Positions 3,852 through 36,234 of a stretch of 43,129 nucleotides of DNA are shown one piece after another. This stretch comes from Thermodesulfovibrionia bacterium (GTDB lineage: Bacteria > Nitrospirota > Thermodesulfovibrionia > UBA6902). The DNA is taken from NCBI GenBank assembly GCA_945787795.1, contig CALZJD010000003.1:1-43129 (forward strand). The letters run 5' to 3'. The position numbers were made by a program, and so were the translations under genes. How positions within the stretch are numbered: the stretch's first letter is position 1; every line of letters begins with the position of its first letter. The notes below the pieces were generated by a model. It did no database searches and was not told the origin of the DNA. It worked only from the letters and a program-made list of their open reading frames with translations.

Positions 3852-4412
3852 ATGTCAGTAAAAATAACATTTGTCATTGGTGGTGCGAGAAGCGGTAAAA
3901 GCTCATTCGTTCTCAACGTGGTATCTAAGCTTGAGGGCGCGAGGGCCTACATCGCAACCGGAGAAGCCCTTGATGACGAAATGCATAATAGGATCAGCAA
4001 ACACAAGGAAGACAGAGGCCCTGAGTGGAACACGTATGAGGAACCGCTAGAAATAGCACATGTTCTTTCAGACATCTTAGACGATCATAGTATTATCGTG
4101 ATTGATTGTCTCACATTGTGGTTGTCGAATGTTCTGATTAGAACCAAGAACAAAGAGCAAAGAACAAAAACTACGGAAGAAAGCATGAAGGAGCTTATTG
4201 ATGTGTTGCAGGGTATCAAGAACTCGTCACCCGTCACGCGTCACGCGTCACGGCTGTTCATCGTTTCCAACGAACTCGGCATGGGCATTGTGCCTGAAAA
4301 TGCAATGGCAAGGGAGTTCAGGGACCTGACAGGTTTTCTCAACCAGAAAGTTGCAGAAATAGCAGATGAGGTATTTCTTGTTACAGCAGGGATACCAATG
4401 AAAATAAAGTAG
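3852..4412 (+). CDS. cobU: Adenosylcobinamide kinase / adenosylcobinamide-phosphate guanylyltransferase
   Basis: P-loop VIGGARSGKS near the N-terminus and the conserved SNELGMGIVPEN...FRD motifs. I chose the start at MSVKITFVIGG; the track's 3801 start overlaps the tonB end and adds non-homologous residues. Confidence 0.88.
   Translation: MSVKITFVIGGARSGKSSFVLNVVSKLEGARAYIATGEALDDEMHNRISKHKEDRGPEWNTYEEPLEIAHVLSDILDDHSIIVIDCLTLWLSNVLIRTKNKEQRTKTTEESMKELIDVLQGIKNSSPVTRHASRLFIVSNELGMGIVPENAMAREFRDLTGFLNQKVAEIADEVFLVTAGIPMKIK
4146..4175 (+). repeat. In-frame heptamer-periodic cassette (AAAGARC units) inside cobU, encoding KNKEQRTKTT
   Basis: The sequence aagaacaaagagcaaagaacaaaaactacg shares the core CAAAGAGCAAAGA(A/G)CAAA with 6643-6672 in cobC. 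Confidence 0.6.
4221..4250 (+). repeat. In-frame 30-nt CGTCAC-heptamer cassette inside cobU, encoding NSSPVTRHAS
   Basis: The sequence AACTCGTCACCCGTCACGCGTCACGCGTCA is 28/30 identical to 8165-8194 and 24/30 identical to 32627-32656. It has a 7-nt periodicity (NNCGTCA x4). Confidence 0.8.
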
Positions 4413-5656: not shown

Positions 5657-5740
5657 GAGCACAGAAACCAGAGCACAGACTACTTATTTTATCTTTTTTT
5701 ATCTTTAGTCTGTATTCTGTCATCTGTGATCTGTAATCTG
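5657..5740 (+). repeat. Inverted heptamer arrays forming a long imperfect hairpin between cobT and cobS
   Basis: The left arm is (N)CAGNNN units (gagcacagaaaccagagcacagact). The right arm is NNTCTGT units (agtctgtattctgtcatctgtgatctgtaatctg). About 17/22 positions pair, and the loop is a T-rich 25 nt. The right arm abuts the cobS ATG. Confidence 0.7.
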
Positions 5741-6526
5741 ATGAGAAAACTAATTCTGGCATTCCAGTTCCTGACAATCATACCGGTAAAGGACACCGGA
5801 GAAATCCCTGATGAGGAGATGGGCCGTGTTGCTGCCTCTTTTCCTGTTGTGGGGTTTGCTGAAGGAACAGTACTTGCCTGTCTTGCATTTCTCCTTTTAA
5901 AAATTCTTCCTGCTGAAGTTGTAAGTGCACTGCTGGTGCTTGTAATGACAATATTAAATGGCGGGCTTCACCTTGACGGCCTTGCCGACACCTTTGACGC
6001 TATCGCCGCCAGAGGTGACAGTGAGAGAAAGCTTTCCATAATGAAGGACAGTTCTACAGGCCCGGCTGGAGTCATTTCGATAGTAATTGTTTTGCTGCTT
6101 ACCTATGTACTACTTAATGCCGTTCATTTTCATGCATCAAAAGACCTCTACTTCGGTATAGTTTTACTTATGCCTGTTGTTTCCCGCTGGACAATGGTGC
6201 CTGCTCTTTACTATGGGAAACCAGCCAGACAGGACGGGTTAGGTAAAGTATTTATAGAATTTACAGGATTAAGAGAGCTCATACTTTCGACATTACTCAT
6301 GTTTCTGGTTGTGGTGATGTATGCTCTTGTATTCTCAGACGTTAACCTGTTTGTTTCATTCTGCATGATGAATTTCCCCGTATTATATGGATTCTGTCTT
6401 CTTACTGTATGGTTTTCAAATATTCATTTTGAAGGATTAACTGGAGACATATTAGGAGCAGTGAATGAAATTGCAAAACTTTTATTTTTAATTACATCAT
6501 TATTATGGCTACAACAGTCTACTTAA
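5741..6526 (+). CDS. cobS: Adenosylcobinamide-GDP ribazoletransferase (cobalamin 5'-phosphate synthase)
   Basis: Polytopic membrane protein with N-terminal LAFQFLTIIPV and the GGLHLDGLADTFD motif typical of CobS. Start taken at MRKLILAF. Confidence 0.88.
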   Translation: MRKLILAFQFLTIIPVKDTGEIPDEEMGRVAASFPVVGFAEGTVLACLAFLLLKILPAEVVSALLVLVMTILNGGLHLDGLADTFDAIAARGDSERKLSIMKDSSTGPAGVISIVIVLLLTYVLLNAVHFHASKDLYFGIVLLMPVVSRWTMVPALYYGKPARQDGLGKVFIEFTGLRELILSTLLMFLVVVMYALVFSDVNLFVSFCMMNFPVLYGFCLLTVWFSNIHFEGLTGDILGAVNEIAKLLFLITSLLWLQQST

Positions 6527-7128
6527 TAAGACACGGCAAAACAGTTGACGCGGATTCAAGGCGTTATAAGGGACATATTGATGTACCCTTGTCTGAGAAT
6601 GGGATCGGGCAGCTGGAAAAACTAGCTGAATATCTATCACAGACAAAAGAGCAAAGAGCAAAGAGCAAAGACATAAATGCTGTATATTCTTCCGGTTTAA
6701 GCCGTGCATTTAAAAGCGCTGAAATCATTGCAAAACCGTTTGGGCTCAAACCGGTCATCATTGAGGACCTTAAAGAGCGCAGCTTTGGCGCATGGGAGGG
6801 CATGACTTTTGATGAGATAAAAGAGAAATGGCCCGATGCGTTTAATGCATGGGCGGAGAATCCTCTGAAGTTCAGCCCTATGGAAGGAGAAAACACCTTG
6901 GAAGTTAAAGAGAGAGCTATGATGGCATTTAATGAAATAATCAGGAATCATAAAGATGAAGAAATAGCCATCGTTACCCATGGAGGAATAACCAGAGTGA
7001 TACTTTGTGAATTGCTCGAGATGCCGCTTGAAAATATATTTCGCATCGAACAGAGTTTTGCTGCATTGAATATAGTTGAATTTTGGGATTATCCTGTAGT
7101 TAAACTCATTAATGGGAGGATTGAGTGA
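6505..7128 (+). CDS. cobC: Alpha-ribazole phosphatase (histidine phosphatase family)
   Basis: The RHG motif (YLIRHGKT) and a later THGG histidine are present. It lies in the cob cluster and overlaps the cobS end. Confidence 0.8.
   Translation: MATTVYLIRHGKTVDADSRRYKGHIDVPLSENGIGQLEKLAEYLSQTKEQRAKSKDINAVYSSGLSRAFKSAEIIAKPFGLKPVIIEDLKERSFGAWEGMTFDEIKEKWPDAFNAWAENPLKFSPMEGENTLEVKERAMMAFNEIIRNHKDEEIAIVTHGGITRVILCELLEMPLENIFRIEQSFAALNIVEFWDYPVVKLINGRIE
6643..6672 (+). repeat. In-frame heptamer cassette (AAAGAGC x3-4) inside cobC, encoding TKEQRAKSKD
   Basis: The sequence is acaaaagagcaaagagcaaagagcaaagac. It is related to 4146-4175. Confidence 0.65.
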
Positions 7129-7238
7129 AAGTCAGTAGACAGGTGGGCAGACATATTAAAATCCAGAGTTGATATCTGTTATATATTAAGGCAGGTAGGG
7201 ATGGATGACTGCATGATAAATTTAACAAAGGGCATTAA

Positions 7239-7634
7239 ATGCACAACAAAGAAATTATAATTATTGTAGGTCACGGTAATCCTGAAAAAGAAGCAGACAG
7301 TACCGGTTATATATCTGAAGAGCTGCATAACCTTATCCATCCTTCATGCAATCATACGTGCGTAAGAATTGCTTATCTTCAGTTTATGAAGCCTGAGCTT
7401 CAGAAAGCGATCAACGATGCGGTGAATGATGGTGCTGAAAAAATAATAATACATCCCTATCTATTAAGCAGTGGATACCATGTATCAAAGAATATTCCCT
7501 TTATGATTGATAAGGCAAAAAAAGACCACCCTGACGTTAAATTTGTATATACTGAACCATTGGGTGCTCATAAAAAACTGGTGGAAGTGGTGCTTGAAAG
7601 AATCATGGCATCAACAGATCTTCAACATGATTAA
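7239..7634 (+). CDS. cbiX: Sirohydrochlorin cobaltochelatase, small CbiX(S) type
   Basis: At 131 aa it matches CbiX(S) size. It has IIIVGHGN... and HPYLLSSGYH motifs. Confidence 0.75.
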   Translation: MHNKEIIIIVGHGNPEKEADSTGYISEELHNLIHPSCNHTCVRIAYLQFMKPELQKAINDAVNDGAEKIIIHPYLLSSGYHVSKNIPFMIDKAKKDHPDVKFVYTEPLGAHKKLVEVVLERIMASTDLQHD

Positions 7635-7645
7635 AGAAAATTTAA

Positions 7646-8326
7646 ATGTATAAAGTATTTGTCATAGGTATAGGATTTCGTCCTCTTGATAAAAAGGCCA
7701 GCACAGCTCTTTTGCAGTCAGATGTCGTACTTACCAATGACAGGCTGCTTGAAGCATTTAAAGATTATGCTGAATATAAGAATGTTCAAGACAGAATTGT
7801 ATCTCTGAAAGATATTCATGAGACAAAACAATATATTCGTGATAATTATAGAAGCAAGGCAATAGCCCTGTTGGCTGTGGGAGATCCCATGTTTTTCGGT
7901 ATTGGCAGGGTAATTAAAGATGAAATTGGCAAAGAGGCCATGGAGGTCTATCCTGATTTATCAAGTATACAGGTGGCCTTTGCAAGGATTAAGGAGCCAT
8001 CAAGCAATGCATTCATCATAAGTCTTCATGGCGGACCTGATCCGGATAACAGAAGGAAACTTGAGTATGAGATTACTGAACTGCCTGATCTGCTTACACA
8101 GCATAAAAAAATAGCAATCCTTACGGACAGGATAAACAGCCCGACAGAAATAGCAAAGACACTCAACTCGTCACCCGTCATCCGTCACGCGTCACCAAGA
8201 ATGTATGTCTGTGAAAAACTGGGATACGATGATGAGAAAATCACAGATGGGTTACCGGAAGAAATCGCTGCAGCCTCCCATGTCCATCCAAACGTGGTAA
8301 TCATTGTATATGGTGAGAATGACTGA
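7646..8326 (+). CDS. cbiE: Cobalt-precorrin-7 (C5)-methyltransferase / precorrin-6Y methylase CbiE-like
   Basis: Tetrapyrrole methylase fold motifs are present (VIGIG..., LLAVGDPMFFGIG). Confidence 0.75.
   Translation: MYKVFVIGIGFRPLDKKASTALLQSDVVLTNDRLLEAFKDYAEYKNVQDRIVSLKDIHETKQYIRDNYRSKAIALLAVGDPMFFGIGRVIKDEIGKEAMEVYPDLSSIQVAFARIKEPSSNAFIISLHGGPDPDNRRKLEYEITELPDLLTQHKKIAILTDRINSPTEIAKTLNSSPVIRHASPRMYVCEKLGYDDEKITDGLPEEIAAASHVHPNVVIIVYGEND
8165..8194 (+). repeat. In-frame 30-nt CGTCAC-heptamer cassette inside cbiE, encoding NSSPVIRHAS
   Basis: The sequence AACTCGTCACCCGTCATCCGTCACGCGTCA is 28/30 identical to the cobU copy and sits in the same reading phase. Confidence 0.8.
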
Positions 8327-13968: not shown

Positions 13969-15842
13969 GTCGAGTGGCGCGGGGGAATCTCACCCTCCAC
14001 GCTCTCACAGATCCGGACGTGAACCTCTCAGCTCATCCGGCTCCTATCGTCCAACCGGTGGTCGAAAACCTGCCCGCCAATGTGCAAACAGTAGTGGCTG
14101 CTGACGAGCTAATCGTCCCAGCCAGTGCATTGCTCTTCGACGGTGGCCTTTCAATTTCTTGTATTTCCTCATTACCCATCGCATCAGAATACGATCAAAT
14201 ACGTGAAACGTAAAATAAAGTGCAGACTTGTAGTACTGTCCATAGTAATTTATCCATCCTCGAAGGATTGGGTTGCAGATGTATGACAGCTCTTCAAGGC
14301 TTTTGTCACTACGACGGTGAAATCGCCAACTTCTCATGACGTGGCGTATCTTCTTGATCGCTTTATTGCTCACCGCCGGACTGAAATTGACAAGGCACTT
14401 TCCAAACCGAGTCATTGAGTTTCTAGGTCTAAATGTATATCCCAAGAAGTCGAATTTCTCATTCAGATACCTACCTCGCCTCCTGCCATCCTTACAGTAG
14501 ACAATCTTCGTCTTTGAAGGATGAAGCTCCAGTTTGCACTGCAAAAGCCTCTTTTCAATCATAACCTTGATCCACTGAGCTTGTTTCTCACTCACGCAGT
14601 GCACGATGATATCGTCAGCATAACGCTCAAATGGTATAGTTGGATAGTTCTTCCTCATCCATTCATCAAATGCGTAATGGAGAAAAAGATTTGCCAGCAA
14701 AGGACTAATAACAGAACCCTGTGGCGTACCCTTGAGACGCTCTACACGTCTCCTATCTTCCCGTTGTGCTGGTGCCTTTAACCATCTCTTAATGTACAAC
14801 AGAATCCACTTGCTATCCGTATGCTTCCGCACCGCTCTCATCATGAGGTTATGCTCCAGATTATCAAAGAACCCTTTGATATCCAGATCCAAAGCCCAGT
14901 CATACTGCCAGCATCTCTGCCGTGCAACTCCTACTGCCTCAACTGCTGACTTTCCAGTCCTGTACCCATAAGAGTCTGGATGAAAGTGAGGATCTACATC
15001 GGGCTCCAGATACTTCTTTACCACCATCTGGGCAACTCGATCACTTACCGTAGGTATCCCTAGTGGCCTTTTGCCTCCATCTACCTTTGGTATCTCCACT
15101 ATCCGTACCGCTGGGGGAAAGTAGCTCCCTGAAGACATCCGATTCCAGAGCTTGTAAAGATTATTCTTTAAATCTTTTTCAAACTCCTCAATCGACTCCT
15201 CATCTACTCCGGCAGCACCTTTGTTTGCCTTTACTCTCTGATACGCTTCCCATACTACTTGTTTGGAAATACTAAACGGTTTTGCTTTACCCAATAGCTC
15301 CTCCCACTGAATGGTTGACTATTTTTTCAAAGCTGGACGATATAATCCCCTTCGCTCCAGTTCCATTACGAACTTTCTTCACTACTACGGGATTACTCCG
15401 CCCCCTTCATGTGCATCGATACTTTCCCCTTCGTGGGTCTCACTTATAGGTTTTCTCTTAGCATCACATGAAGAGTTCCCACGTTCCACACAAAAGCCTG
15501 TATCAGGTTCATGCCACCTTTATGCCGGACGCCGCTCAGGCAGTAAGCAGGTCTCCTCCTGAACTTATCCTGGTGTCAACAAAGCCACCAGTTTTGACGT
15601 CATCTTTAACTTTTCGACACCTCATCGGTGGTTCGCTTTCGCTCATCTCCCTGATCCTTACCTCGCCACGATCCTGTGCCGTGACTTTCCTTAACGCTCA
15701 CCACACCAGCTTTTGACTAATGCAGCTTAAGGTGGTTTGAAGCCTGCTCCTGCAAGCCGACTCCGAGGGGCCCTCCCTCATCTCATGTGCAGCATCGAAT
15801 GCTTTATCCTTCACCTCCTTTCAGCACTCGTTCGTGGCGCAC
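13969..15842 (-). mobile_element. Group II intron (complete; RT/maturase ORF in domain IV, no endonuclease domain)
   Basis: On the minus strand the 5' end is GTGCGCC at 15842. A domain V-like hairpin GAGCCGGATGAGCTGAGAGGTTCACGTCCGGATC starts 1 nt after the ORF stop. It is followed by a domain VI helix with an unpaired A 7 nt from the ...CTCGAC 3' end. Boundaries are accurate to about +/-5 nt. Confidence 0.85.
14044..15294 (-). CDS. Group II intron reverse transcriptase/maturase
   Basis: RT motifs are present, including YADDIIV, as is the maturase X domain (GWINYYG). The C-terminus ...LFAHWRAGFRPPVGR has no HNH motif. Confidence 0.92.
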   Translation of the reverse strand: MGKAKPFSISKQVVWEAYQRVKANKGAAGVDEESIEEFEKDLKNNLYKLWNRMSSGSYFPPAVRIVEIPKVDGGKRPLGIPTVSDRVAQMVVKKYLEPDVDPHFHPDSYGYRTGKSAVEAVGVARQRCWQYDWALDLDIKGFFDNLEHNLMMRAVRKHTDSKWILLYIKRWLKAPAQREDRRRVERLKGTPQGSVISPLLANLFLHYAFDEWMRKNYPTIPFERYADDIIVHCVSEKQAQWIKVMIEKRLLQCKLELHPSKTKIVYCKDGRRRGRYLNEKFDFLGYTFRPRNSMTRFGKCLVNFSPAVSNKAIKKIRHVMRSWRFHRRSDKSLEELSYICNPILRGWINYYGQYYKSALYFTFHVFDRILMRWVMRKYKKLKGHRRRAMHWLGRLARQQPLLFAHWRAGFRPPVGR

Positions 15843-17980: not shown

Positions 17981-20193
17981 TGGATTCTACAGTACTTGAA
18001 ACAAAGGTTGCAGCAGAGCGCAGTCTGATAACAATTGCGATCGCCGGAAACCCGAACTCGGGCAAATCAACTCTAATCAACGCCATCGCCGGAACAAAGC
18101 TGCATGTCGGCAACTGGCCCGGTGTTACCGTTGAGAAAAAGGAGACTGTCTTTGATTACCGCGGCAGAAGGATCAGGCTTGTGGACCTTCCGGGTACCTA
18201 CAGTCTAAGCCCCTATACGCAGGAAGAGATAATAGCACGGGATTACCTTGTACATGAAAAGCCCGATGTGGTCATCAATGTTGTTGATGCCACAAACCTT
18301 GAGAGAAACCTTTATCTTTCTGTGCAGATCCTTGAGCTGGAGATACCGGTTGTCATGGCCCTGAACATATACGACGAAGCAGAGAGGAAAGGCTTCAGTA
18401 TTGATAAAGAAGCAATGCAGGAGATGCTCGACGTAACCATCGTGCCTACGGTAGCTACAAAGAAGACAGGTCTGAGTGAGCTCTTTGAAGCAGTTGTAAA
18501 CATCGTGGACAACGGTCAGACTGGCAGGCCCCGCCATCTTAACTATGGCAACGACATAGAGGCTGCTGCAGGCGATGTACAGAAACGGATCATGGAGACC
18601 GCTCCTTCGCTTGCAAATAAATACCCGCTCAGGTGGCTTGCCTTAAAGGTGCTTGAGGGAGACGACCGCGCCATTGAGGAAAGGGATTTAAATATCACGG
18701 ACTGTACGGATGGCGAGGCAGTGAAACATCTTGTCACCACGCAGGGTGACGATATCGAATCCCTGATGGCCGATGCGCGCTATGCCCAGGCATCAGGGCT
18801 GACAAAAGAGGTCCTGACAAAACCCTCGGTCCGGAAAACGGAACTCACGGAAAGGATCGACAGGGTCGTCCTGAACCGCTACCTCGGCATCCCGATATTC
18901 CTGGCTGCCATGTGGCTTGTCTTTAAACTGACCTTTGATGTCTCCACCCCTTTCGGAGACTGGATAGATGAAATGACGGCGGGACCATTCATGCGCTGGA
19001 CATCAACTGTAATGACCTTCCTGCGCGCACCTGACTGGATGATCTCCCTTGCAACTGACGGGGTGATCGCCGGTGTTGGCTTTGTGCTGGTATTCGTACC
19101 TGTGGTCTTTGCCATGATGTTCTTTATTACCTTTCTTGAGGGAAGCGGCTACATGGCCCGAGCGGCCTTTGTGATGGACAGGGCCATGCACTCAATGGGC
19201 CTTCACGGGAAGTCTTTTATCCCCATGCTGCTCGGATTTGGATGCAACGTGCCGGGTATCTACGCAACAAGAACGCTGGAGAACAACAGGGACAAGGCAC
19301 TGACTGCCCTTCTCATACCTCTCATGTCCTGCGGCGCACGGCTGCCTGTCTATGTTCTTTTTGTAAGTGCCTTCTTCGCTGCCAGCTCCGGCACTGTACT
19401 CTGGTCACTGTACGTGCTCGGCATCGTAATGGCCATCATAGTCGGTATTATATTTAAAAAGACCATATTCAGGGGAGACTCGCCCATGTTTATCATGGAG
19501 CTACCCCCCTACAGGTTTCCATCGATGAGGAACCTGATGATACATACCTGGGAAAAGGGCAAGCACTTTCTTATCAAGGCAGGCACGTACATCTTTGCTG
19601 TGTCCATCATTGTCTGGTTCCTGCTGAACCTGCCCTGGGGAGTAGAACATAAGAAAGACTCCTTTCTGGGACAGACCGCCCAGGTCGTGGCCCCTGCCTT
19701 TGAACCCCTGGGATTTGGGAACTGGGAGGCCTCAGCTGCCCTCATAACCGGCATCATCGCTAAGGAGATCGTGGTAGGCACCATGGGTGAGATCTATATC
19801 CCGGCCTCAAACGGGGAAGCACCGGAGGAAGCAGAAGAAGTACCTACCTTCGGGGAAGACCTGAAACACATGACAGTATCATTCGGAACAGCTGCACGGG
19901 ACTCAGTGCTGAACGTCTTTTCGACCTTTGGTGTCGCGAGCATCTCAGCCGAGGAAGATGAGGAGGCAGGCCCGCTGAAATCAAAGATAATGGATGCATT
20001 CACACCGTTAAGCGCCTATTCCTTCATGACATTTGTGCTGCTCTATATGCCCTGTGTCATCGTGCTCGTTGCCATGAAGCATGAATTCGCCACATGGAAG
20101 TGGGCAGGACTGGCATTTGGCTACCAGATGGTGCTGGCGTGGACCGTATCATTCATCATTTATCAGGGCGGTAAGGCCCTGGGCCTGGGATAG
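17980..20193 (+). CDS. feoB: Ferrous iron transporter FeoB
   Basis: N-terminal G domain (GNPNSGKST, DLPGTYS), then a polytopic membrane domain. The start overlaps the upstream stop as TAATG. Confidence 0.95.
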   Translation: MDSTVLETKVAAERSLITIAIAGNPNSGKSTLINAIAGTKLHVGNWPGVTVEKKETVFDYRGRRIRLVDLPGTYSLSPYTQEEIIARDYLVHEKPDVVINVVDATNLERNLYLSVQILELEIPVVMALNIYDEAERKGFSIDKEAMQEMLDVTIVPTVATKKTGLSELFEAVVNIVDNGQTGRPRHLNYGNDIEAAAGDVQKRIMETAPSLANKYPLRWLALKVLEGDDRAIEERDLNITDCTDGEAVKHLVTTQGDDIESLMADARYAQASGLTKEVLTKPSVRKTELTERIDRVVLNRYLGIPIFLAAMWLVFKLTFDVSTPFGDWIDEMTAGPFMRWTSTVMTFLRAPDWMISLATDGVIAGVGFVLVFVPVVFAMMFFITFLEGSGYMARAAFVMDRAMHSMGLHGKSFIPMLLGFGCNVPGIYATRTLENNRDKALTALLIPLMSCGARLPVYVLFVSAFFAASSGTVLWSLYVLGIVMAIIVGIIFKKTIFRGDSPMFIMELPPYRFPSMRNLMIHTWEKGKHFLIKAGTYIFAVSIIVWFLLNLPWGVEHKKDSFLGQTAQVVAPAFEPLGFGNWEASAALITGIIAKEIVVGTMGEIYIPASNGEAPEEAEEVPTFGEDLKHMTVSFGTAARDSVLNVFSTFGVASISAEEDEEAGPLKSKIMDAFTPLSAYSFMTFVLLYMPCVIVLVAMKHEFATWKWAGLAFGYQMVLAWTVSFIIYQGGKALGLG

Positions 20194-28742: not shown

Positions 28743-29000
28743 TTATGAATAAATTTTCAGGGTAATATAAAATTTATTTCCCCCCCTGTTAACAAAAAGC
28801 AATGCAGTGTCCCCTTCTCTTAAACTGCTGGTGATTCTGTTGAAGTCATAAAGATCACGCACCTTTTTTTTGTTTATTTCCTGTATGACGTCGCCTTTCT
28901 TTAATCCAACATCTTCTGCAGCAGTGTAAGGCTGTACCCTTACAATAACCACCCCTTTTTCATTTCTGGAAAGATCGAGCTGCTTTGCTATATCCCGCAA
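28743..29000 (-). CDS. HtrA/DegP second PDZ domain, separated from the protease body by a frame change
   Basis: RDIAKQLDL...GVVIVRV...AAEDVGLKKGDVIQEIN is a typical PDZ2. The ORF-track start is TTG and overlaps the end of 28960-30108. Confidence 0.6.
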   Translation of the reverse strand: MRDIAKQLDLSRNEKGVVIVRVQPYTAAEDVGLKKGDVIQEINKKKVRDLYDFNRITSSLREGDTALLFVNRGGNKFYITLKIYS

Positions 29001-30108
29001 CTTTGATCTTGAGCGGCTTGCTGTTTCTTATAATATGCAGATTAATATTACTCCCGACCTTTGTCTGGGAGACCAGGTTTCTCAGCGCCTCAACGTTTCT
29101 TATATCTTTTCCATTTACCTTGAGAATTACATCGCCCCTTTTAACCCCGGCCATGTCTGCCGGGCTCCCCTTAAACACGTCTGTAACCAGTGCTCCGGCC
29201 AGTTTCTCAAGACCAAATTCCTTTGCAAGTTCAGGCGTAAAATTCTGAATAGTCACCCCGAGCCATCCCCGTGTTACCTTGCCGTCCTTGATCAGCTGTG
29301 TCATGACCGACTTTGCCATATTGCTCGGCACAGCAAATCCAATTCCCTGGTATCCGCCTGTCCTGGAAAAAATAGCAGTATTAATCCCGACAAGTTCTCC
29401 TTTAACATTTACCAGCGGCCCCCCGGAATTTCCCGGGTTAATGGCTGCATCAGTCTGAATAAAGTCCTCATAATCAGCTATGCCCACATTCGCACGTCCC
29501 ATGGCGCTGACTATTCCCATGGTGACGGTATGTCCAAGGCTGAATGGATTGCCAAAAGCCAGAACAAACTCACCCACCTGCAGTGATTCAGAATTTCCCC
29601 AGTTAATCTGAGGGAGGTCATCGGCAGATATCTTTATTACCGCAATATCAGTCTTTGGGTCCGTACCTATAATTTTACCCCTGTAATTCTGCTGGTCATA
29701 TAATGTCACGGTGATCTCATCAGCCTTTTCAACAACATGATTATTTGTGATGATATATCCGTCTGATGAAACAAGTACGCCGGAACCAAGACTTTGCTCT
29801 TTCCATTTTTTAGGCATGCTAAAGGGATCAAATAAGTCCTGAAGCGATCCATCAAAAAAATCGGAAAATGGCGAAGAATCTTTTTTGGAGACTGTCTTGG
29901 AAGTGGAAATATTTACGACAAGAGGACTGATCACCTTGACTATATCTGAAAAGGCGCTGCCCTCACCCTTCAGGGATTGAGGAATCTGAATATTATACGT
30001 ATACGGGGTTCTGGACTTTTTACCAGTAAATATTTGTCCCTTTTTGCCGATTGCATATCCCACAATCAATGTAATTATAAGAATTAAAAGAAAAGATGAT
30101 TTTTTCAT
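28960..30108 (-). CDS. htrA: HtrA/DegP/DegQ serine protease (signal peptide, trypsin domain, PDZ1)
   Basis: The catalytic triad context is TNNHVV, DIAVIK and GNSGGPL. PDZ1 shows GDVILKVNG. The ORF ends in non-homologous residues AGYSKAARSFQK. Confidence 0.85.
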   Translation of the reverse strand: MKKSSFLLILIITLIVGYAIGKKGQIFTGKKSRTPYTYNIQIPQSLKGEGSAFSDIVKVISPLVVNISTSKTVSKKDSSPFSDFFDGSLQDLFDPFSMPKKWKEQSLGSGVLVSSDGYIITNNHVVEKADEITVTLYDQQNYRGKIIGTDPKTDIAVIKISADDLPQINWGNSESLQVGEFVLAFGNPFSLGHTVTMGIVSAMGRANVGIADYEDFIQTDAAINPGNSGGPLVNVKGELVGINTAIFSRTGGYQGIGFAVPSNMAKSVMTQLIKDGKVTRGWLGVTIQNFTPELAKEFGLEKLAGALVTDVFKGSPADMAGVKRGDVILKVNGKDIRNVEALRNLVSQTKVGSNINLHIIRNSKPLKIKVAGYSKAARSFQK

Positions 30109-32152: not shown

Positions 32153-32824
32153 TTGGAGAAATCATCGATGAAATTAATACATTTTTACAGGACACCTATC
32201 CTTTCTGAATCAGAGAATCAAGCGCTTCTGGCAGCTGTTCAATCCCGTGTTTCAGGGAATATTGGTGATATACAGACAGAACACTGTTTCAATATTGCTG
32301 TTGAGAAAGCATTAACACCAGATGAAATGAAAGTCCTGATCTGGCTTCTGTCCGAGACATTTGAACCCGACAAATTTTCTGATAAGAGTTTTTTAACTGA
32401 TGACAAAGCACCCCCCTTTAATTCCCCCCTTACCAAGGGGGAACACAGGGGGGGCATTCTTGAAGTCGGCCCAAGGATGAACTTCAGCACAGCATGGTCC
32501 ACAAATGCCGTTTCAATCTGTCATGCCTGTGGATTGAAAAAAATATCCAGAATTGAACGTTCCCGAAGATATCAATTTGTATTCAGCAAAGATGCGCCAT
32601 TGAGCAGTGAACAAATTGCAGGCATATACTCGTCACTCGTTACTGATCACGCGTCACTGCTGTACGACCGGATGACAGAATGTCACTACCCTGAACAGTT
32701 ATCAACATTTGAAACCGGTATGAAGCCTGAACCTGTTATTGAGATCCCATTAATTGAGCAGGGAAAAGAGGCGCTTGAAACTGGGACCTTGATTACTATT
32801 ACAACCTGTTCGTTAAGGACATAG
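32153..32824 (+). CDS. purL: Phosphoribosylformylglycinamidine synthase (large single-chain type), N-terminal fragment
   Basis: It aligns by eye to the E. coli PurL N-terminal domain (...VGPRMNFSTAWSTNAVSICHACGL...YDRMTE...). The frame is lost near 32778. The start is TTG. Confidence 0.8.
   Translation: MEKSSMKLIHFYRTPILSESENQALLAAVQSRVSGNIGDIQTEHCFNIAVEKALTPDEMKVLIWLLSETFEPDKFSDKSFLTDDKAPPFNSPLTKGEHRGGILEVGPRMNFSTAWSTNAVSICHACGLKKISRIERSRRYQFVFSKDAPLSSEQIAGIYSSLVTDHASLLYDRMTECHYPEQLSTFETGMKPEPVIEIPLIEQGKEALETGTLITITTCSLRT
32411..32454. repeat. C/G-run nested palindrome inserted in frame in purL (encodes PPFNSPLTKGEHRGG)
   Basis: The sequence is cccccctttaattccccccttaccaagggggaacacaggggggg. 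The inner stem is CCCCCTT/AAGGGGG and the outer stem is CCCCCCT/AGGGGGG. Confidence 0.7.
32627..32656 (+). repeat. In-frame 30-nt CGTCAC-heptamer cassette inside purL, encoding YSSLVTDHAS
   Basis: TACTCGTCACTCGTTACTGATCACGCGTCA is 24/30 identical to the cobU copy and in the same reading phase. Its position corresponds to a gap relative to E. coli PurL (..VAAELHDRMME..). Confidence 0.7.
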
Positions 32825-32949
32825 GCAGAAACCCTACCAATGTTGAATGCTTTGACCTGAGCCAGTCTAACAGTGAACACTCACGGCACTGGTTTTTTAA
32901 AGGCCAACTGATTGTTGACGGGAAAGAGGCACCGCATGACCTGATTGAA

Positions 32950-35900
32950 TTGATAAAGAAACCGCTTGATGCACATCCAAATAACAGTATTATTGCCTTT
33001 AAAGATAACTCCAGTTCTATAAGGGGATATTCTATTGAAACCATTGTTCCTGAACATCCGGGACAGTCTTCCCTGTTTACCATATCAGCTTCCCGGTACG
33101 ATCCGATATTTACTGCGGAAACTCATAACTTTCCGAGCGGTGTTGCTCCTTTTCCCGGCGCTGAGACCGGCACGGGCGGAAGGATCAGGGATGTTCAGGC
33201 AACCGGCAGGGGAGGACTTGTCATTGCAGGAACAGCTGCTTACTGTGTCGGCAACCTCATGGTGCCGGGATATGATCTTCCCTGGGAAGATAAGAGTTTT
33301 GAGTATCCTGAAAACCTTGCTTCTCCTTTAGAAATAGAGATCCAGGCAAGCAACGGCGCTTCTGATTATGGAAACAAATTTGGCGAGCCCGTTATTCAGG
33401 GATATACGCGGTCTTTTGGCATGAGGCTCAATTCCGGAGAGAGATATGAATGGATAAAACCGATCATGTTCACCGCAGGTGTTGGCCAGATGGACTCGGG
33501 ACATATCGAAAAAGGCGCCCCTAACACAGGCATGCTCGTTGTAAAAATCGGCGGGCCTGCCTATAGAATCGGTATAGGAGGCGGTGCCGCTTCCAGCATG
33601 ATTCAGGGAGAAAATATTGCTGAGCTGGACTTCAATGCGGTACAGCGCGGTGATGCAGAAATGGAACAGAAAATGAACCGCGCCCTTCGCACCTGTATTG
33701 AACTTGGGGAAGCAAATCCTGTAATTAGCATCCATGATCAGGGCGCAGGAGGAAACTGTAATGTTGTCAAGGAAATCATTTATCCGGCAGGAGCAAAGAT
33801 CGAGGTCAGAAAGATCCAGCTTGGTGATAACACCCTGTCCGTCCTGGAAATATGGGGGGCAGAATATCAGGAGCAAAATGCACTTTTAATAGAGCAAAAC
33901 AGCATTGATATATTTGAAAACATCTGTAACCGGGAAAAAGTCCCCTTTGCCGTTATTGGCCGTATATCAGGAGACGGCAGGATTGTACTGTATGATGAAA
34001 AAGATGACAGCACGCCTGTAAATCTGGATCTGGAAAAAGTTCTGGGTGACATGCCGCAAAAGACGTTTACCCTGGACCGTTTACACACTCAGGCAACTCC
34101 TCTACAGCTGCCTGAAGACATTACCATAAAAAGCGCACTGGAAAGAGTGCTGCGGCTGGTGTCGGTTGGCTCCAAGAGATTTCTTACAAATAAAGTTGAC
34201 CGCAGCGTGACCGGATTAATTGCACGCCAGCAGTGCTGCGGTCCTCTGCAGTTAACCGTTGCAGATGTGGCTGTCGTTGCCCAGAGCCACCTTGGTCTGA
34301 CAGGGGCGGCCATTTCAATAGGTGAACAGCCATTAAAGACCCTCCTTGATCCTGCTGCCATGGCGCGCATGAGTGTTGGCGAGGCGATTACAAATATTGT
34401 GTGGGCCAGATTAAGCGCCTTTGAAGATATTAAATGTTCGGGAAACTGGATGTGGGCTGCAAAACTTCCCGGAGAAGGTGCCCTGCTGTATGATGCTGCT
34501 GTTGCACTCAGCAATATGCTCACTGACCTTGGTATAGCCATAGACGGCGGAAAAGACAGCCTTTCCATGGCTACGCAGGTCAGAAGTAAAAACGGAACCT
34601 CTGAAACCGTCAAATCTCCGGGCACGCTTGTTATCTCTGCATATGCTACATGCCCTGATATAACAAAGGTAATTACCCCGGACATAAAACTACCCGGCAA
34701 CAGCAAATTGATGTATATCGATTTGGGAGAAGGAAAGAACCGCATGGGAGGCACCGCACTGGCGCAGGTGTTTAATCAAACAGGCGATGAATCGCCTGAT
34801 GTTAATGACCCTCTGCAATTAAAAAAAGCTTTTACAGCCATTCAGACATTGATTGAAAATGACCTTATCTTATCAGGCCATGACAGGAGTGACGGCGGTC
34901 TCATCACAACATTGCTTGAAATGGCCTTTGCGGGAAACTGCGGAATGGAAATAACTACAGGGGTCAGGGGTAATGGGTCAGAGGTAATGGGAGAAGATAT
35001 TATTGCAGAGCTTTTTTGTGAAGAATTGGGACTTGTTATTGAATACCTTCCTGATCATGAAGCACAGATATCCTCTTTACTGCAGGAATTAAACGTTCCA
35101 TATCAAATAGTCGGAAAAACTCATACTGATACAAATATTAAAGTGACTGTCAATGAAAATGTCGTTCTTGATGAAAAGATGATAGCCCTGCGAAATATCT
35201 GGGAAGAGACCAGTTATGAACTTGAGAAGCTCCAGGCAGATCCTGCATGCGCAGAAGAAGAAAGAAAGAATATATTCGACAGAAAAGGACCTGATTACCG
35301 TTTGAGATTTACTCCTGAAGATACCCCTGATGTGATAATAAAGAGTGATAAAAAACATAAAGTGGCAATCATCCGGGAAGAAGGCAGCAACAGTGACAGG
35401 GAAATGACCTCTGCTTTTTACCGGGCCGGTTTTGAGACATGGGATGTTGCCATGACCGATTTCCTTGAAGACAGGATCAGGCTTTCCGATTTCAGGGGCG
35501 TGGCCTTTGTCGGGGGGTTCAGCTATGCCGATGTGCTTGATTCGGCAAAAGGCTGGGCCGGGGTTATCAGGTTTAATGAAAAAATATGGGACGAATTCCA
35601 GAATTTTTATAAGAGACCTGATACCTTCAGCCTTGGTGTCTGCAACGGGTGCCAGTTAATGGCCCTGCTTGGCTGGATTCCATGGCAGGGGATAGAGGAC
35701 AATATCCAGCCGCGGTTTATTCATAACAGGTCCGGAAGGTTTGAGTCCCGGTTTTCATCAGTGAAAATACTTTCCAGTCCATCACTCATGTTAAAAGGTA
35801 TGGAAGATTCGGTCCTCGGGATATGGGTGGCCCATGGTGAAGGCAGGGCATATTTCCCTGACAGGGACATTCTGAAGAAGATTAATGATGATAATCTGGC

Positions 35901-36162
35901 GCCCATACGATATGTAGATGATAATAATGAGATCACAACTCATTATCCATTCAACCCGAACGGTTCTGAAAACGGGATAGCTTCCCTGTGTTCCCCTGAT
36001 GGAAGGCATCTGGCCATTATGCCGCATCCTGAAAGGACATTTCTGAAATGGCACTGGCCCTGGATGCCTGAAAAGTGGAAGCAGGATCTGGATACTTCCC
36101 CCTGGCTGAAAATGTTTCAGAATGCCAGGGAATGGTGTGAAACTGATAAAGACAGCAGTTAG
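32950..36162 (+). CDS. purL: Phosphoribosylformylglycinamidine synthase, main fragment (FGAM synthetase + C-terminal glutaminase)
   Basis: Motifs ETHNFPS, GAETGTGGRIRD and GVCNGCQ are present, as is the PHPER glutaminase triad context. Homology in this frame already begins at about 32779 (NWDLDYYYNLF..GRNPTNVE..SNSEHSRH). The first usable start codon is TTG at 32950. Confidence 0.85.
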   Translation: MIKKPLDAHPNNSIIAFKDNSSSIRGYSIETIVPEHPGQSSLFTISASRYDPIFTAETHNFPSGVAPFPGAETGTGGRIRDVQATGRGGLVIAGTAAYCVGNLMVPGYDLPWEDKSFEYPENLASPLEIEIQASNGASDYGNKFGEPVIQGYTRSFGMRLNSGERYEWIKPIMFTAGVGQMDSGHIEKGAPNTGMLVVKIGGPAYRIGIGGGAASSMIQGENIAELDFNAVQRGDAEMEQKMNRALRTCIELGEANPVISIHDQGAGGNCNVVKEIIYPAGAKIEVRKIQLGDNTLSVLEIWGAEYQEQNALLIEQNSIDIFENICNREKVPFAVIGRISGDGRIVLYDEKDDSTPVNLDLEKVLGDMPQKTFTLDRLHTQATPLQLPEDITIKSALERVLRLVSVGSKRFLTNKVDRSVTGLIARQQCCGPLQLTVADVAVVAQSHLGLTGAAISIGEQPLKTLLDPAAMARMSVGEAITNIVWARLSAFEDIKCSGNWMWAAKLPGEGALLYDAAVALSNMLTDLGIAIDGGKDSLSMATQVRSKNGTSETVKSPGTLVISAYATCPDITKVITPDIKLPGNSKLMYIDLGEGKNRMGGTALAQVFNQTGDESPDVNDPLQLKKAFTAIQTLIENDLILSGHDRSDGGLITTLLEMAFAGNCGMEITTGVRGNGSEVMGEDIIAELFCEELGLVIEYLPDHEAQISSLLQELNVPYQIVGKTHTDTNIKVTVNENVVLDEKMIALRNIWEETSYELEKLQADPACAEEERKNIFDRKGPDYRLRFTPEDTPDVIIKSDKKHKVAIIREEGSNSDREMTSAFYRAGFETWDVAMTDFLEDRIRLSDFRGVAFVGGFSYADVLDSAKGWAGVIRFNEKIWDEFQNFYKRPDTFSLGVCNGCQLMALLGWIPWQGIEDNIQPRFIHNRSGRFESRFSSVKILSSPSLMLKGMEDSVLGIWVAHGEGRAYFPDRDILKKINDDNLAPIRYVDDNNEITTHYPFNPNGSENGIASLCSPDGRHLAIMPHPERTFLKWHWPWMPEKWKQDLDTSPWLKMFQNAREWCETDKDSS
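34960..34989 (+). repeat. In-frame heptamer cassette (GGGTNAN units) inside purL, encoding GVRGNGSEVM
   Basis: The units are ggggtca ggggtaa tgggtca gaggtaa tg. The region is about 7 aa longer than the corresponding E. coli PurL loop. Confidence 0.55.
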
Positions 36163-36234
36163 TAGATAGTAGTTAAGGGAAAAGAATTGAACATGCAGGC
36201 CCTAACTACCAGCTACTGACTACTAACTACTTTT
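36158..36234 (+). terminator. Heptamer-array hairpin plus T tract after purL
   Basis: The left arm is gttagtagatagtagttaaggg. The right arm is ccc taactac cagctac tgactac taactac. The arms are largely complementary and are followed by TTTT. Confidence 0.6.

What the first reader, a model, noticed from the sequence alone, without database searches (positions are those of the whole stretch)
4221..4250. One 30-nt CGTCAC-heptamer cassette is embedded in frame in three unrelated enzymes (copy in cobU)
The sequence AACTCGTCACCCGTCACGCGTCACGCGTCA (NSSPVTRHAS) in cobU recurs at 8165-8194 in cbiE (28/30 nt identical, NSSPVIRHAS). It recurs again at 32627-32656 in purL (24/30 nt identical, YSSLVTDHAS). 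Each copy is exactly 10 codons, lies on the coding strand and is read in the same phase. Internally it is four 7-nt units (NNCGTCA), and 7 is not a multiple of 3, so conservation of a 30-nt total looks selected. The reverse complement carries TGA in all three frames, so only this orientation could survive inside a CDS. In purL the cassette coincides with a gap relative to E. coli PurL as I remember it. The closest precedents I know are the in-frame Rickettsia palindromic elements and the heptameric STRR repeats of heterocystous cyanobacteria. A short heptamer-built element colonising housekeeping enzymes in a fixed phase is unusual and I do not recognise it as described.
Basis: partly seen in the sequence, partly recalled or inferred. 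Interest (0 to 1): 0.8.

Follow-up and report, generated by a model that had tools for sequence, protein, structure and literature searches.

The report
In-frame heptamer repeat cassettes in enzymes
The 30-base CGTCAC cassette is real and is translated inside three enzymes, but it is one example of short 7-base tandem repeats that are unusually common inside genes in this Nitrospirota lineage, sitting in surface loops of conserved proteins.

Summary
Three copies of a roughly 4.3-unit CGTCACN array lie at 4221-4250 (cobU), 8165-8194 (cbiE) and 32627-32656 (purL). All are on the coding strand and in the same codon register. None is expected by chance.

They are not a unique element. The window has 8 period-7 arrays against 0.9 expected, and 6 of them are inside genes. 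In 133 kb of related Nitrospirota DNA, 31 of 40 arrays lie inside long ORFs (23 per 100 kb). In 581 kb from other phyla the figure is 2.1 per 100 kb.

- **Age:** the cobU and cbiE cassettes keep the same site and length in relatives 74-95% identical, so they are old and stable.
- **cobU:** both of its arrays add 7 residues (3 units) relative to canonical CobU. The cassette maps to a low-confidence loop.
- **purL:** the copy is patchy among orthologues.
- **cbiE:** it is not a clean insertion.

Best reading: these are heptanucleotide microsatellite-type arrays, filtered by strand, by length (multiples of 3) and by loop tolerance. A copy-paste cassette remains a serious rival. The same register recurs in at least 4 unrelated genes, and array-plus-palindrome composites are shared between genes.

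Verdict: a new variant of a known kind, of moderate interest.

The parts
4221..4250 (+). CGTCACN heptamer cassette (about 4.3 units) in cobU (gene 3852-4412), translated NSSPVTRHAS
   Evidence: The same site and length occur in L001 and L002. It corresponds to residues 124-133 of the CobU model, a loop between helix 108-124 and strand 133-140 with pLDDT<50 at 128-130.
8165..8194 (+). CGTCACN cassette in the cbiE-type methylase (7646-8326), translated NSSPVIRHAS
   Evidence: It is conserved at the same length in orthologues from 95% down to about 52% identity.
32627..32656 (+). Decayed CGTCACN/TCGTCAC cassette in the purL N-terminal part (32168-32824), translated YSSLVTDHAS
   Evidence: L205 has a perfect (TCGTCAC)x4.1 at the same site and phase. 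The closest relative, L204, lacks it.
4140..4168 (+). AGAACAA heptamer array (4.1 units) in cobU, translated RTKNKEQRTK
   Evidence: Orthologue P0013 lacks exactly the 7 residues KNKEQRT. Canonical CobUs show a 7-residue gap here.
6646..6671 (+). Perfect AAAGAGC array (3.7 units) in cobC (6505-7128), translated KEQRAKSK
   Evidence: The same loop carries other inserts in relatives.
34958..34985 (+). CAGGGGT/GGGTCAG array (4.0 units) in the purL C-terminal part, translated TGVRGNGSEV
5701..5740 (+). ATCTGTN array (5.7 units) abutting or overlapping the cobS start (GTG 5726 / ATG 5741). The unit carries stop codons.
   Evidence: The Pfam CobS match starts at residue 12 of the ORF.
36202..36231 (+). 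CTAACTA/CTGACTA array (4.3 units), intergenic between purL and purF, with stops in both orientations
   Evidence: The same unit family lies 4 nt upstream of the cobQ start in L002 (13383-13413).
32411..32455 (+). C-run/G-run hairpin-type in-frame insert in purL loop 1, translated PPFNSPLTKGEHRGG. It is a different repeat class occupying a loop that carries heptamer arrays in relatives.

Best explanation
The cassette is a short heptanucleotide tandem array (unit CGTCACN, equivalent to TCGTCAC, about 4.3 units). It belongs to the class of heptamer simple-sequence repeats, which in this Nitrospirota (Thermodesulfovibrionia-like) lineage are unusually frequent inside genes.

**Inferred origin.** The arrays arise at the DNA level by slippage or reiterative copying of a 7-nt template during replication or repair. 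They are not selected as a protein motif.

**Filters for survival inside a gene**
1. The stop-free strand must be the coding strand. The reverse strand has TGA in all three frames.
2. The net length change must be a multiple of 3. For a 7-nt unit that means steps of 3 units, or 21 nt, or 7 residues. One seed unit plus three new units gives the observed 4-unit arrays.
3. The array must fall in a solvent-exposed loop that tolerates a Ser/Thr/Arg/His-rich linker of the form xSSxVTRHxS.

**After fixation.** The arrays are length-stable and decay by point substitution, with occasional re-homogenisation.

**Why the three copies look alike.** They share the same favoured unit, the same typical array size and the same register. 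Transposition is not required to explain this.
For: **Shown**
- Period-7 arrays number 8 in the window against 0.92 expected. Other periods are near expectation, except period 14, a multiple of 7 (2 against 0.21).
- Many different units occur, and 6 of the 8 arrays are inside genes.
- In 133 kb of related loci, 31 of 40 arrays are inside long ORFs. In 581 kb from other phyla, 12 of 57 are. Intergenic densities are similar in the two sets.
- The CobU DCLT-to-VSNE distance is 37-41 aa in canonical proteins, 53 (39+14) in the window and L001, and 60 (39+21) in L002. P0013 lacks exactly 7 aa at site 1, and 7-residue gaps appear at both sites in many tblastn alignments.
- Units found inside CDS are stop-free on the coding strand. 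The arrays outside coding sequence (ATCTGTN at the cobS start, CTAACTA intergenic) carry stops.
- The cassette maps to the lowest-confidence loop of the CobU model.
- The same loops carry different heptamers in different lineages. CobU site 2 has TCAACAT x6.7, GTTCACT x3 or TCTGGGC. PurL loop 1 has CTCATCA x4.4 or GCATCAC. cobQ has TCTGGGA or ACTCGTC.
- There is no copy-number change across orthologues 74-95% identical.
- The same CGTCACN array occurs in many phyla, including in frame in an RmlB-like dehydratase and a UvrA-like protein.
- No RNA structure is shared by the three copies.

**From the literature**
- Heptamer SSR excess is established, and a polymerase-slippage explanation has been proposed (Mrazek 2007, as summarised in PMC4679880).
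- A preference for four units has been reported (PMC4692102).
Against: - A one-step change from 1 to 4 units is not classical slippage, because the intermediates would be frameshifts in essential genes.
- The net length changes at PurL (+8 aa) and CbiE (0 to +5 aa) are not 7-residue quanta.
- In L205 a perfect (AGTCAGG)x4.3 array occupies a stretch whose length is the same in array-less orthologues. That looks like replacement rather than insertion.
- The mode of about 4.3-4.6 units also holds for intergenic arrays in other phyla, so the frame filter alone does not explain it.
- The identical start, end and register of the cassette in cobU, cbiE, purL and cobQ is unlikely for independent random seeding. 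Treating the four sites as independent draws gives roughly 0.003 to 0.04, depending on the prior.
- The sample is about 130 kb of related DNA, not a whole genome. The in-ORF calls outside the annotated loci rest on an ORF-length rule.
Confidence: 0.55

Rival explanations
1. **Copy-paste cassette.** The roughly 30-nt CGTCACN block, and related array-plus-palindrome composites, would be a dispersed repeat family. It would spread between loci by a templated process, such as ectopic gene conversion between arrays, repair synthesis copying another array, or a site-specific mini-element. It would land in or overwrite permissive loops in a fixed register.
For: - The same boundaries and register (N/Y-S-S-x-V-T-R-H-x-S) occur in cobU, cbiE and purL, in cobQ of L127, and in real enzymes of other phyla.
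- A 21-nt palindrome (CTGCCTGCCGGCAGGCAAGGC, translated 'LPAGRQG') sits at the same internal position of the CGTCAC array in cobU (L209) and in cbiE (L210) (proteins).
- A CAGAACA-array plus palindrome composite is 45/48 identical, including the flank TTAATCAGAACACAGA, between purL (L207) and cobU (L208).
- Some arrays replace sequence without any length change.
- L122, a Nitrospirae MAG, has two cassettes with alike flanks within 2 kb.
Against: - There are no terminal inverted repeats and no evident target-site duplication in the flanks read, and there is no shared hairpin in the cassette itself.
- The flank identity between the window copies is only AACT, which is itself a degenerate unit.
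- Orthologous copies diverge independently. In L002 the cobU and cbiE copies are not more alike than orthologues are.
- Dozens of unrelated heptamer units show the same behaviour, which points to a process rather than one element.
- The composites could equally arise if the palindrome inserts site-specifically into any array of that unit.
Confidence: 0.3
2. **Functional motif.** The array would be kept because it does something, for example as a DNA or RNA binding site for a heptamer-reading protein, or as a peptide motif (Ser/Thr-rich xSSxVTRHxS) used for regulation of the host enzymes.
For: - Site and length are conserved over 74-95% identity, with units kept recognisable.
- The register recurs across genes and phyla.
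- In other phyla the same unit often lies at the 5' edge of long ORFs in sense orientation, as TAACTGA repeats do in Beggiatoaceae (PMC4679880).
Against: - The same loops carry unrelated heptamers, palindromes or nothing in other lineages.
- The purL copy is decayed and is absent from the closest relative.
- There is no conserved RNA fold.
- The cassette lies in the least confident loop, away from conserved motifs.
Confidence: 0.07
3. **Phase-variable contingency locus.** Copy number would change frequently and switch the genes on and off.
For: The unit length is not a multiple of 3, so any single-unit change would shift the frame. Also, purL and htrA are frameshifted in this window.
Against: - No copy-number differences are seen among CbiE orthologues 94-95% identical, nor across 74-85% identical relatives.
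- The purL frameshift is a 34-nt deletion 120 nt away from the cassette, not a unit change.
- The hosts are housekeeping enzymes.
- Four units is short for slippage.
Confidence: 0.03
4. **Assembly or sequencing artefact.**
For: The window carries at least two frameshifted genes, so the consensus quality is uncertain.
Against: The cassettes recur at the same sites in independent assemblies, including a complete 3.17-Mb genome (L002), another MAG (L001) and several metagenomes.
Confidence: 0.02

Closest known systems
Long heptanucleotide simple-sequence repeats of prokaryotes (Mrazek, Guo and Shah 2007, as summarised in PMC4679880 and PMC4692102)
   Same: Both are tandem 7-nt units that are over-represented relative to other periods. 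The units differ from locus to locus. A replication-slippage origin has been proposed.
   Different: The published repeats are described as mainly intergenic, with units that are multiples of 3 favoured in coding regions. Here about three quarters of the arrays lie inside genes, in frame, in housekeeping enzymes.
G-rich heptamer repeats of Xanthomonas and Nostoc (PMC4692102), and the cyanobacterial STRR heptamers (the STRR comparison is from my own knowledge)
   Same: [quoted passage not shown]
   Different: [quoted passage not shown] The arrays here are not G-rich, and the same size mode appears without any G4 potential.
TAACTGA direct repeats of marine Beggiatoaceae (PMC4679880)
   Same: Heptamer arrays of 2-6 units, often directly upstream of start codons. 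The window's ATCTGTN array at the cobS start and the CTAACTA/CTGACTA arrays behave in this way. The distribution across phyla is scattered.
   Different: TAACTGA carries stops in all forward frames and is almost entirely intergenic. The CGTCACN cassette is stop-free on its sense strand and is translated.
Rickettsia palindromic elements, i.e. in-frame MITE insertions (my own knowledge; the MITE review PMC10969869 was found but not read)
   Same: Repeated DNA inserted in frame into unrelated conserved genes, tolerated because it lands in surface regions of the proteins.
   Different: RPEs are 100-150 bp, palindromic and presumed mobile. The cassette is 30 nt, a direct tandem repeat with no hairpin. 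The relatives do also carry 21-30-nt palindromes in frame in the same loops, and those are closer to RPE or REP behaviour.
Tandem repeats of Borg elements that create disordered protein regions (PMC9879509, abstract seen)
   Same: Tandem DNA repeats that arise de novo inside ORFs and add low-complexity, probably disordered segments.
   Different: That paper's abstract describes the Borg repeats as rapidly evolving and recently formed. Here the unit is 7 nt, the arrays are only about 4 units, and at least two of them are old and length-stable.

Membership tests
Heptanucleotide simple-sequence repeat (LSSR / STRR-like) | Head-to-tail tandem copies of a 7-nt unit | tested here: met
   TRF finds period 7 with 4.0-4.4 copies at all three sites.
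Heptanucleotide simple-sequence repeat (LSSR / STRR-like) | More and longer arrays than the sequence composition predicts | tested here: met
   There are 8 period-7 arrays against 0.92 in 100 Markov-2 shuffles, with a maximum of 5 in any shuffle. The template scan gives 3 loci against 0.
Heptanucleotide simple-sequence repeat (LSSR / STRR-like) | Copy number varies between related genomes (the slippage signature) | tested here: inconclusive
   No change is seen at cobU or cbiE across 74-95% identity. However, 7-residue steps and a 6.7-unit array occur at the same loops in more distant orthologues.
Heptanucleotide simple-sequence repeat (LSSR / STRR-like) | Predominantly intergenic location | tested here: not met
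   In the window 6 of 8 arrays, and in related loci 31 of 40, lie inside genes or long ORFs.
In-frame palindromic mobile element (RPE / MITE-like) | Terminal inverted repeats or a stable hairpin | tested here: not met
   RNA folds of the three copies give z-scores of -1.6, +0.75 and +1.27, with no shared structure. The sequence is a direct repeat.
In-frame palindromic mobile element (RPE / MITE-like) | Dispersed near-identical copies inserted in frame in unrelated genes | tested here: met
   Three genes in the window carry it. So do cobQ in L127 and a dehydratase and a UvrA-like protein in other phyla.
In-frame palindromic mobile element (RPE / MITE-like) | A clean insertion relative to empty sites, with target-site duplication | tested here: not met
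   The net differences are +7 aa (CobU), +8 aa (PurL) and 0 to +5 aa (CbiE). No duplicated flank was seen.
Phase-variable contingency locus | Unit-number polymorphism among close strains that switches the reading frame | tested here: not met
   CbiE orthologues 94-95% identical have the same length. Read-level data were not available.

The most novel reading that the evidence does not exclude
A dedicated process working in a 7-nt register writes arrays of about 30 nt and 21-nt palindromes into DNA. It could be reiterative gap-filling synthesis, or a targeted mini-element or gene-conversion system. It would often act without changing length, or in 21-nt quanta, which would be why the arrays are tolerated in housekeeping genes. 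On this reading the CGTCACN cassette is a propagating module with fixed ends and register. It recurs in unrelated genes of Nitrospirota and also appears in frame in enzymes of other phyla.
Probability: 0.2. Interest if true: 0.8.

Novelty: new variant of a known kind. Interest (0 to 1): 0.55.

Why it matters
If the pattern holds genome-wide, this lineage would be a natural experiment in how non-triplet microsatellites enter essential genes.

- **Size preference.** The data show a 7-residue quantum, recurrent 'hot' loops, and a size mode of about 4 units that G-quadruplex formation cannot explain. That bears on the unexplained preference for four-unit heptamer arrays in bacteria.
- **Practical use.** These cassettes inflate loops, disturb alignments and homology models, and may break assemblies and gene calls in Nitrospirota MAGs.
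- **Templated exchange.** The shared array-plus-palindrome composites hint at sequence exchange between short repeats, which would be worth testing.

Tried and rejected
- **Metagenome scan.** The scan with the CobU alignment also saturated. It returned mostly distant CobU loci, which proved useful as a control but gave only about 6 close relatives.
- **Exact look-up.** The window's CbiE found no record.
- **RNA families.** Rfam and tRNA scans found nothing at the cassettes, only a group II intron elsewhere.
- **RNA folding.** No shared structure was found.
- **Self-written tandem scorer.** My own strict scorer was too stringent and was replaced by TRF with shuffles.
- **A corrected error.** I first took ATG 36235 as a start codon abutting the CTAACTA array. 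Translation showed an internal stop, so that claim was dropped.
- **Seed idea for CobU.** I considered that the 'PV' of canonical CobU might be the seed of the array, and rejected it as unproven because L001 has RV there.
- **Literature.** Searches for heptamer repeats in Nitrospirae/Thermodesulfovibrionia coding regions found nothing. Mrazek 2007 (PMC1895974) is not held.
- **Cluster look-up.** The cluster-member look-up returned only truncated protein names and no organism identity.

Full report
**1. Observation**

Against the cobU copy (4221-4250), the cbiE copy (8165-8194) differs at 2 of 30 bases and the purL copy (32627-32656) at 6 of 30. Chance does not explain this.
- The 29-mer with up to 3 mismatches occurs twice, against 0 in 100 shuffles.
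- CGTCACNCGTCA with up to 1 mismatch gives 7 hits against 0.15 expected.
- A four-unit CGTCAC template scan finds only these three loci, and none in 20 shuffles.

Pfam confirms the hosts as CobU, a CbiE-type tetrapyrrole methylase and the N-terminal domain of large PurL. All three copies begin at codon position 1 and are read as N/Y-S-S-x-V-(T/I)-(R/D)-H-A-S. The reverse complement has TGA at positions 1, 8, 15 and 22, which covers all three frames.

**2. Context**

The window carries the following genes:
- a B12 uptake and salvage cluster (TonB-dependent receptor, TonB, cobU, cobT, cobS, cobC, cbiX, cbiE);
- a PIF1-type helicase;
- a group II intron;
- feoB;
- ispDF;
- htrA;
- purL and purF.

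The closest proteins come from MAGs named Nitrospirae, Nitrospiraceae, Thermodesulfovibrionales or Thermodesulfovibrionia. Two syntenic relatives were fetched. L001 has a CobU 85% identical. L002, from the complete 3.17-Mb genome CP070632.1, has a CobU 74% identical.

**3. The cassette is one of many heptamer arrays**

TRF finds 8 period-7 arrays in the window, against 0.92 expected from 100 Markov-2 shuffles. Other periods are near expectation, except period 14, a multiple of 7 (2 against 0.21).

Besides the three CGTCACN copies, the arrays are as follows:
- AGAACAA x4.1, also in cobU;
- a perfect AAAGAGC x3.7 in cobC;
- CAGGGGT x4.0 in purL;
- ATCTGTN x5.7 abutting the cobS start;
- CTAACTA x4.3 between purL and purF.

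Units found inside genes are stop-free on the coding strand. The two outside coding sequence carry stops.

**4. Orthologue comparisons**

*CobU.* L001 and L002 have a CGTCAC array at the same site and of the same length, differing by point substitutions.
- The distance from the conserved DCLT motif to VSNE is 37-41 residues in canonical proteins of other lineages.
- It is 53 residues (39+14) in the window and L001, and 60 (39+21) in L002.
- Orthologue P0013 lacks exactly KNKEQRT at site 1.
- Seven-residue gaps appear at both sites in many pairwise alignments. The solved CobU 8yep shows gaps of 6 and 9 residues.
- So in CobU each array corresponds to +7 residues, which is 21 nt or three units.

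*CbiE.* The cassette is kept at the same length in orthologues from 95% down to about 52% identity. Many cassette-less orthologues have a loop of the same length (37 residues in the compared stretch). The shortest have 32-34 residues. So this is not a clean 10-residue insertion.

*PurL.* A subset of Nitrospirota orthologues carries SSLVTRHSSLF at this site. L205 has a perfect (TCGTCAC)x4.1 in the same phase. The closest relative (L204, 74% identical) lacks it. The net difference is 8 residues.

**5. Structure**

An AlphaFold2 model of the window's CobU has a mean pLDDT of 84.8. It places the cassette (residues 124-133) in the loop between helix 108-124 and strand 133-140, and residues 128-130 are the only segment of three or more residues below pLDDT 50. 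The AGAACAA-encoded insert (residues 99-105) lies in the loop at 100-107.

**6. Wider pattern**

The same loops carry different repeats in different lineages.
- CobU site 2 has TCAACAT x6.7 (L129), GTTCACT x3 (L127), TCTGGGC-type arrays (L124, L125) or a 30-nt perfect palindrome (L131).
- PurL loop 1 has CTCATCA x4.4 (L205), GCATCAC x3.4 (L206) or C-run/G-run hairpins (the window and L204).
- cobQ has TCTGGGA x4.6 (L002) or a perfect ACTCGTC x4.6 read as LNSSLVTRHSSL (L127).

In 133 kb of Nitrospirota-like loci, 40 period-7 arrays were found and 31 lie inside long ORFs (23 per 100 kb). In 581 kb of CobU loci from other phyla there are 57 arrays, of which 12 lie inside long ORFs (2.1 per 100 kb). 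Intergenic densities are similar, at 6.7 against 7.7 per 100 kb. Gene calls supplied with L001, L002, L204 and L205 give the same picture.

Array size peaks at 4.0-4.6 units in both sets, including intergenic arrays of other phyla. This agrees with the published preference for four units (PMC4692102).

CGTCACN arrays themselves occur in many phyla. They are also found in frame in a Desulfuromonadales RmlB-like dehydratase (PSPVTRHASR) and a Prolixibacteraceae UvrA-like protein (SSRVTRHASL).

**7. Evidence for exchange between loci**

A 21-nt palindrome, read as LPAGRQG or LPTGQAG, interrupts heptamer arrays at several sites.
- It sits at the same internal position of the CGTCAC array in cobU (L209) and in cbiE (L210).
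- A CAGAACA-array plus palindrome composite is 45/48 identical, including its 5' flank, between purL (L207) and cobU (L208).
- In L207 this insert carries stop codons.

**8. Mechanism**

*What is shown:*
- the period-7 excess;
- the high density inside genes in this lineage;
- the strand rule;
- the 7-residue quanta in CobU;
- the loop location;
- the long-term length stability;
- the turnover of units at hot loops.

*What is inferred:* the arrays are produced at the DNA level by slippage or reiterative copying of a 7-nt template. They persist in genes only when the strand is stop-free, the length change is a multiple of 3 and the site is a tolerant loop. I put this at 0.55.

*Main rival (0.30):* a templated copy-paste of complete cassettes. 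It is favoured by the common register and boundaries in at least four unrelated genes, by the shared composites, and by cases where an array replaces sequence without any length change (L205; CbiE).

*Less likely:* a functional motif, phase variation and artefact. The loops carry unrelated inserts in other lineages, there is no copy-number variation among close relatives, and independent assemblies agree.

**9. Comparison with known systems**

The cassette meets the definition of a heptanucleotide simple-sequence repeat, except for the usual intergenic location. It behaves like in-frame repeats such as the Rickettsia palindromic elements (my own knowledge), but it fails their structural criteria: it has no palindrome, no clean insertion and is 30 nt rather than 100-150 bp. 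I found no paper describing heptamer arrays in coding regions of Nitrospirota. The library is incomplete, so this is not proof of absence.

**10. Caveats**
- No whole genome could be scanned, so copy number per genome and genome-wide register statistics are unknown.
- In-ORF calls for loci without supplied gene calls use an ORF-length rule.
- Loop alignments are uncertain by a residue or two.
- The window has at least two frameshifted genes, so its consensus quality is uncertain. The cassettes themselves are corroborated elsewhere.

Noticed in passing
window 32779/32780 (purL): purL is split into two frames (32168-32824 and about 32786-36162). The cause is a precise 34-nt deletion relative to L204 and L205 that removes the conserved KINxxMGLGLDD segment. 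The closest relative, L204, also has purL broken, but at a different place (around residue 297).
   Followed up: partly
window 28743-30108 (-): The htrA-like protease (trypsin plus PDZ) is frameshifted into ORFs of 382 aa and 85 aa, whereas relatives have about 490 aa. Either the consensus has indel errors or the genome carries pseudogenes.
   Followed up: partly
window 13969-15779 (-): A complete group II intron is present, with Rfam D1-D4 and domain V/VI hits and an RT/maturase ORF at 14044-15294.
   Followed up: partly
window 32411-32455; L131 cobC; L204 purL: A second class of in-frame insert consists of C-run/G-run hairpins read as PPFNSPLTKGEHRGG or PPSPPLLKGGKGG. They lie in loops of purL and cobC and are conserved between the window and L204.
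   Followed up: partly
L209 cobU, L210 cbiE, L208 cobU, L207 purL, L125 cobU: A 21-nt palindrome (CTGCCT.CCGG.CAGGCAGG, read as LPAGRQG, LPTGQAG or CLPDRQA) is embedded inside heptamer arrays of different genes. It occupies the same internal position in cobU and cbiE. In L207 the composite insert carries stop codons inside purL.
   Followed up: partly
L131 10001-10576 (cobU site 2); P0267, P0268, P0278 (CbiE); P0154 (PurL): Other in-frame palindromic inserts occur in the same loops. One is a 30-nt perfect palindrome, CGTAGGGGCGGTTCGCGAACCGCCCCTACG. Others are longer elements read as AVIARS..TKQS..SPS(V/A)RND.
   Followed up: no
window 5701-5740; L002 13383-13413; window 36202-36231: Stop-rich heptamer arrays (ATCTGTN, CTAACTA/CTGACTA) lie directly at or a few bases before start codons (cobS in the window, cobQ in L002). 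This recalls the TAACTGA repeats of Beggiatoaceae. The window's CTAACTA array is about 58 nt upstream of purF.
   Followed up: partly
L004-L123 (many phyla): CGTCACN arrays of 3-21 units are widespread (Chloroflexota, Bacteroidota, Verrucomicrobiota, Planctomycetota, Acidobacteriota, Streptomyces). Many of them lie in sense orientation within 0-30 codons of the upstream end of a long ORF.
   Followed up: partly
window 7128-7239 versus L002 13418-15073: The relative L002 has cobQ (cobyric acid synthase) between cobC and cbiX. The window has only about 110 nt there, so cobQ is absent from this position.
   Followed up: no
window 18001-20000: The feoB region has a G+C content of 0.52, against about 0.42 for the rest of the window.
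   Followed up: no
L127 7214-7398: Three separate heptamer arrays (CGATACA x4.0, a perfect CATGCAT x4.1 and a perfect ACTCGTC x4.6) lie within 190 nt of the 3' part of one cobQ gene.
   Followed up: no
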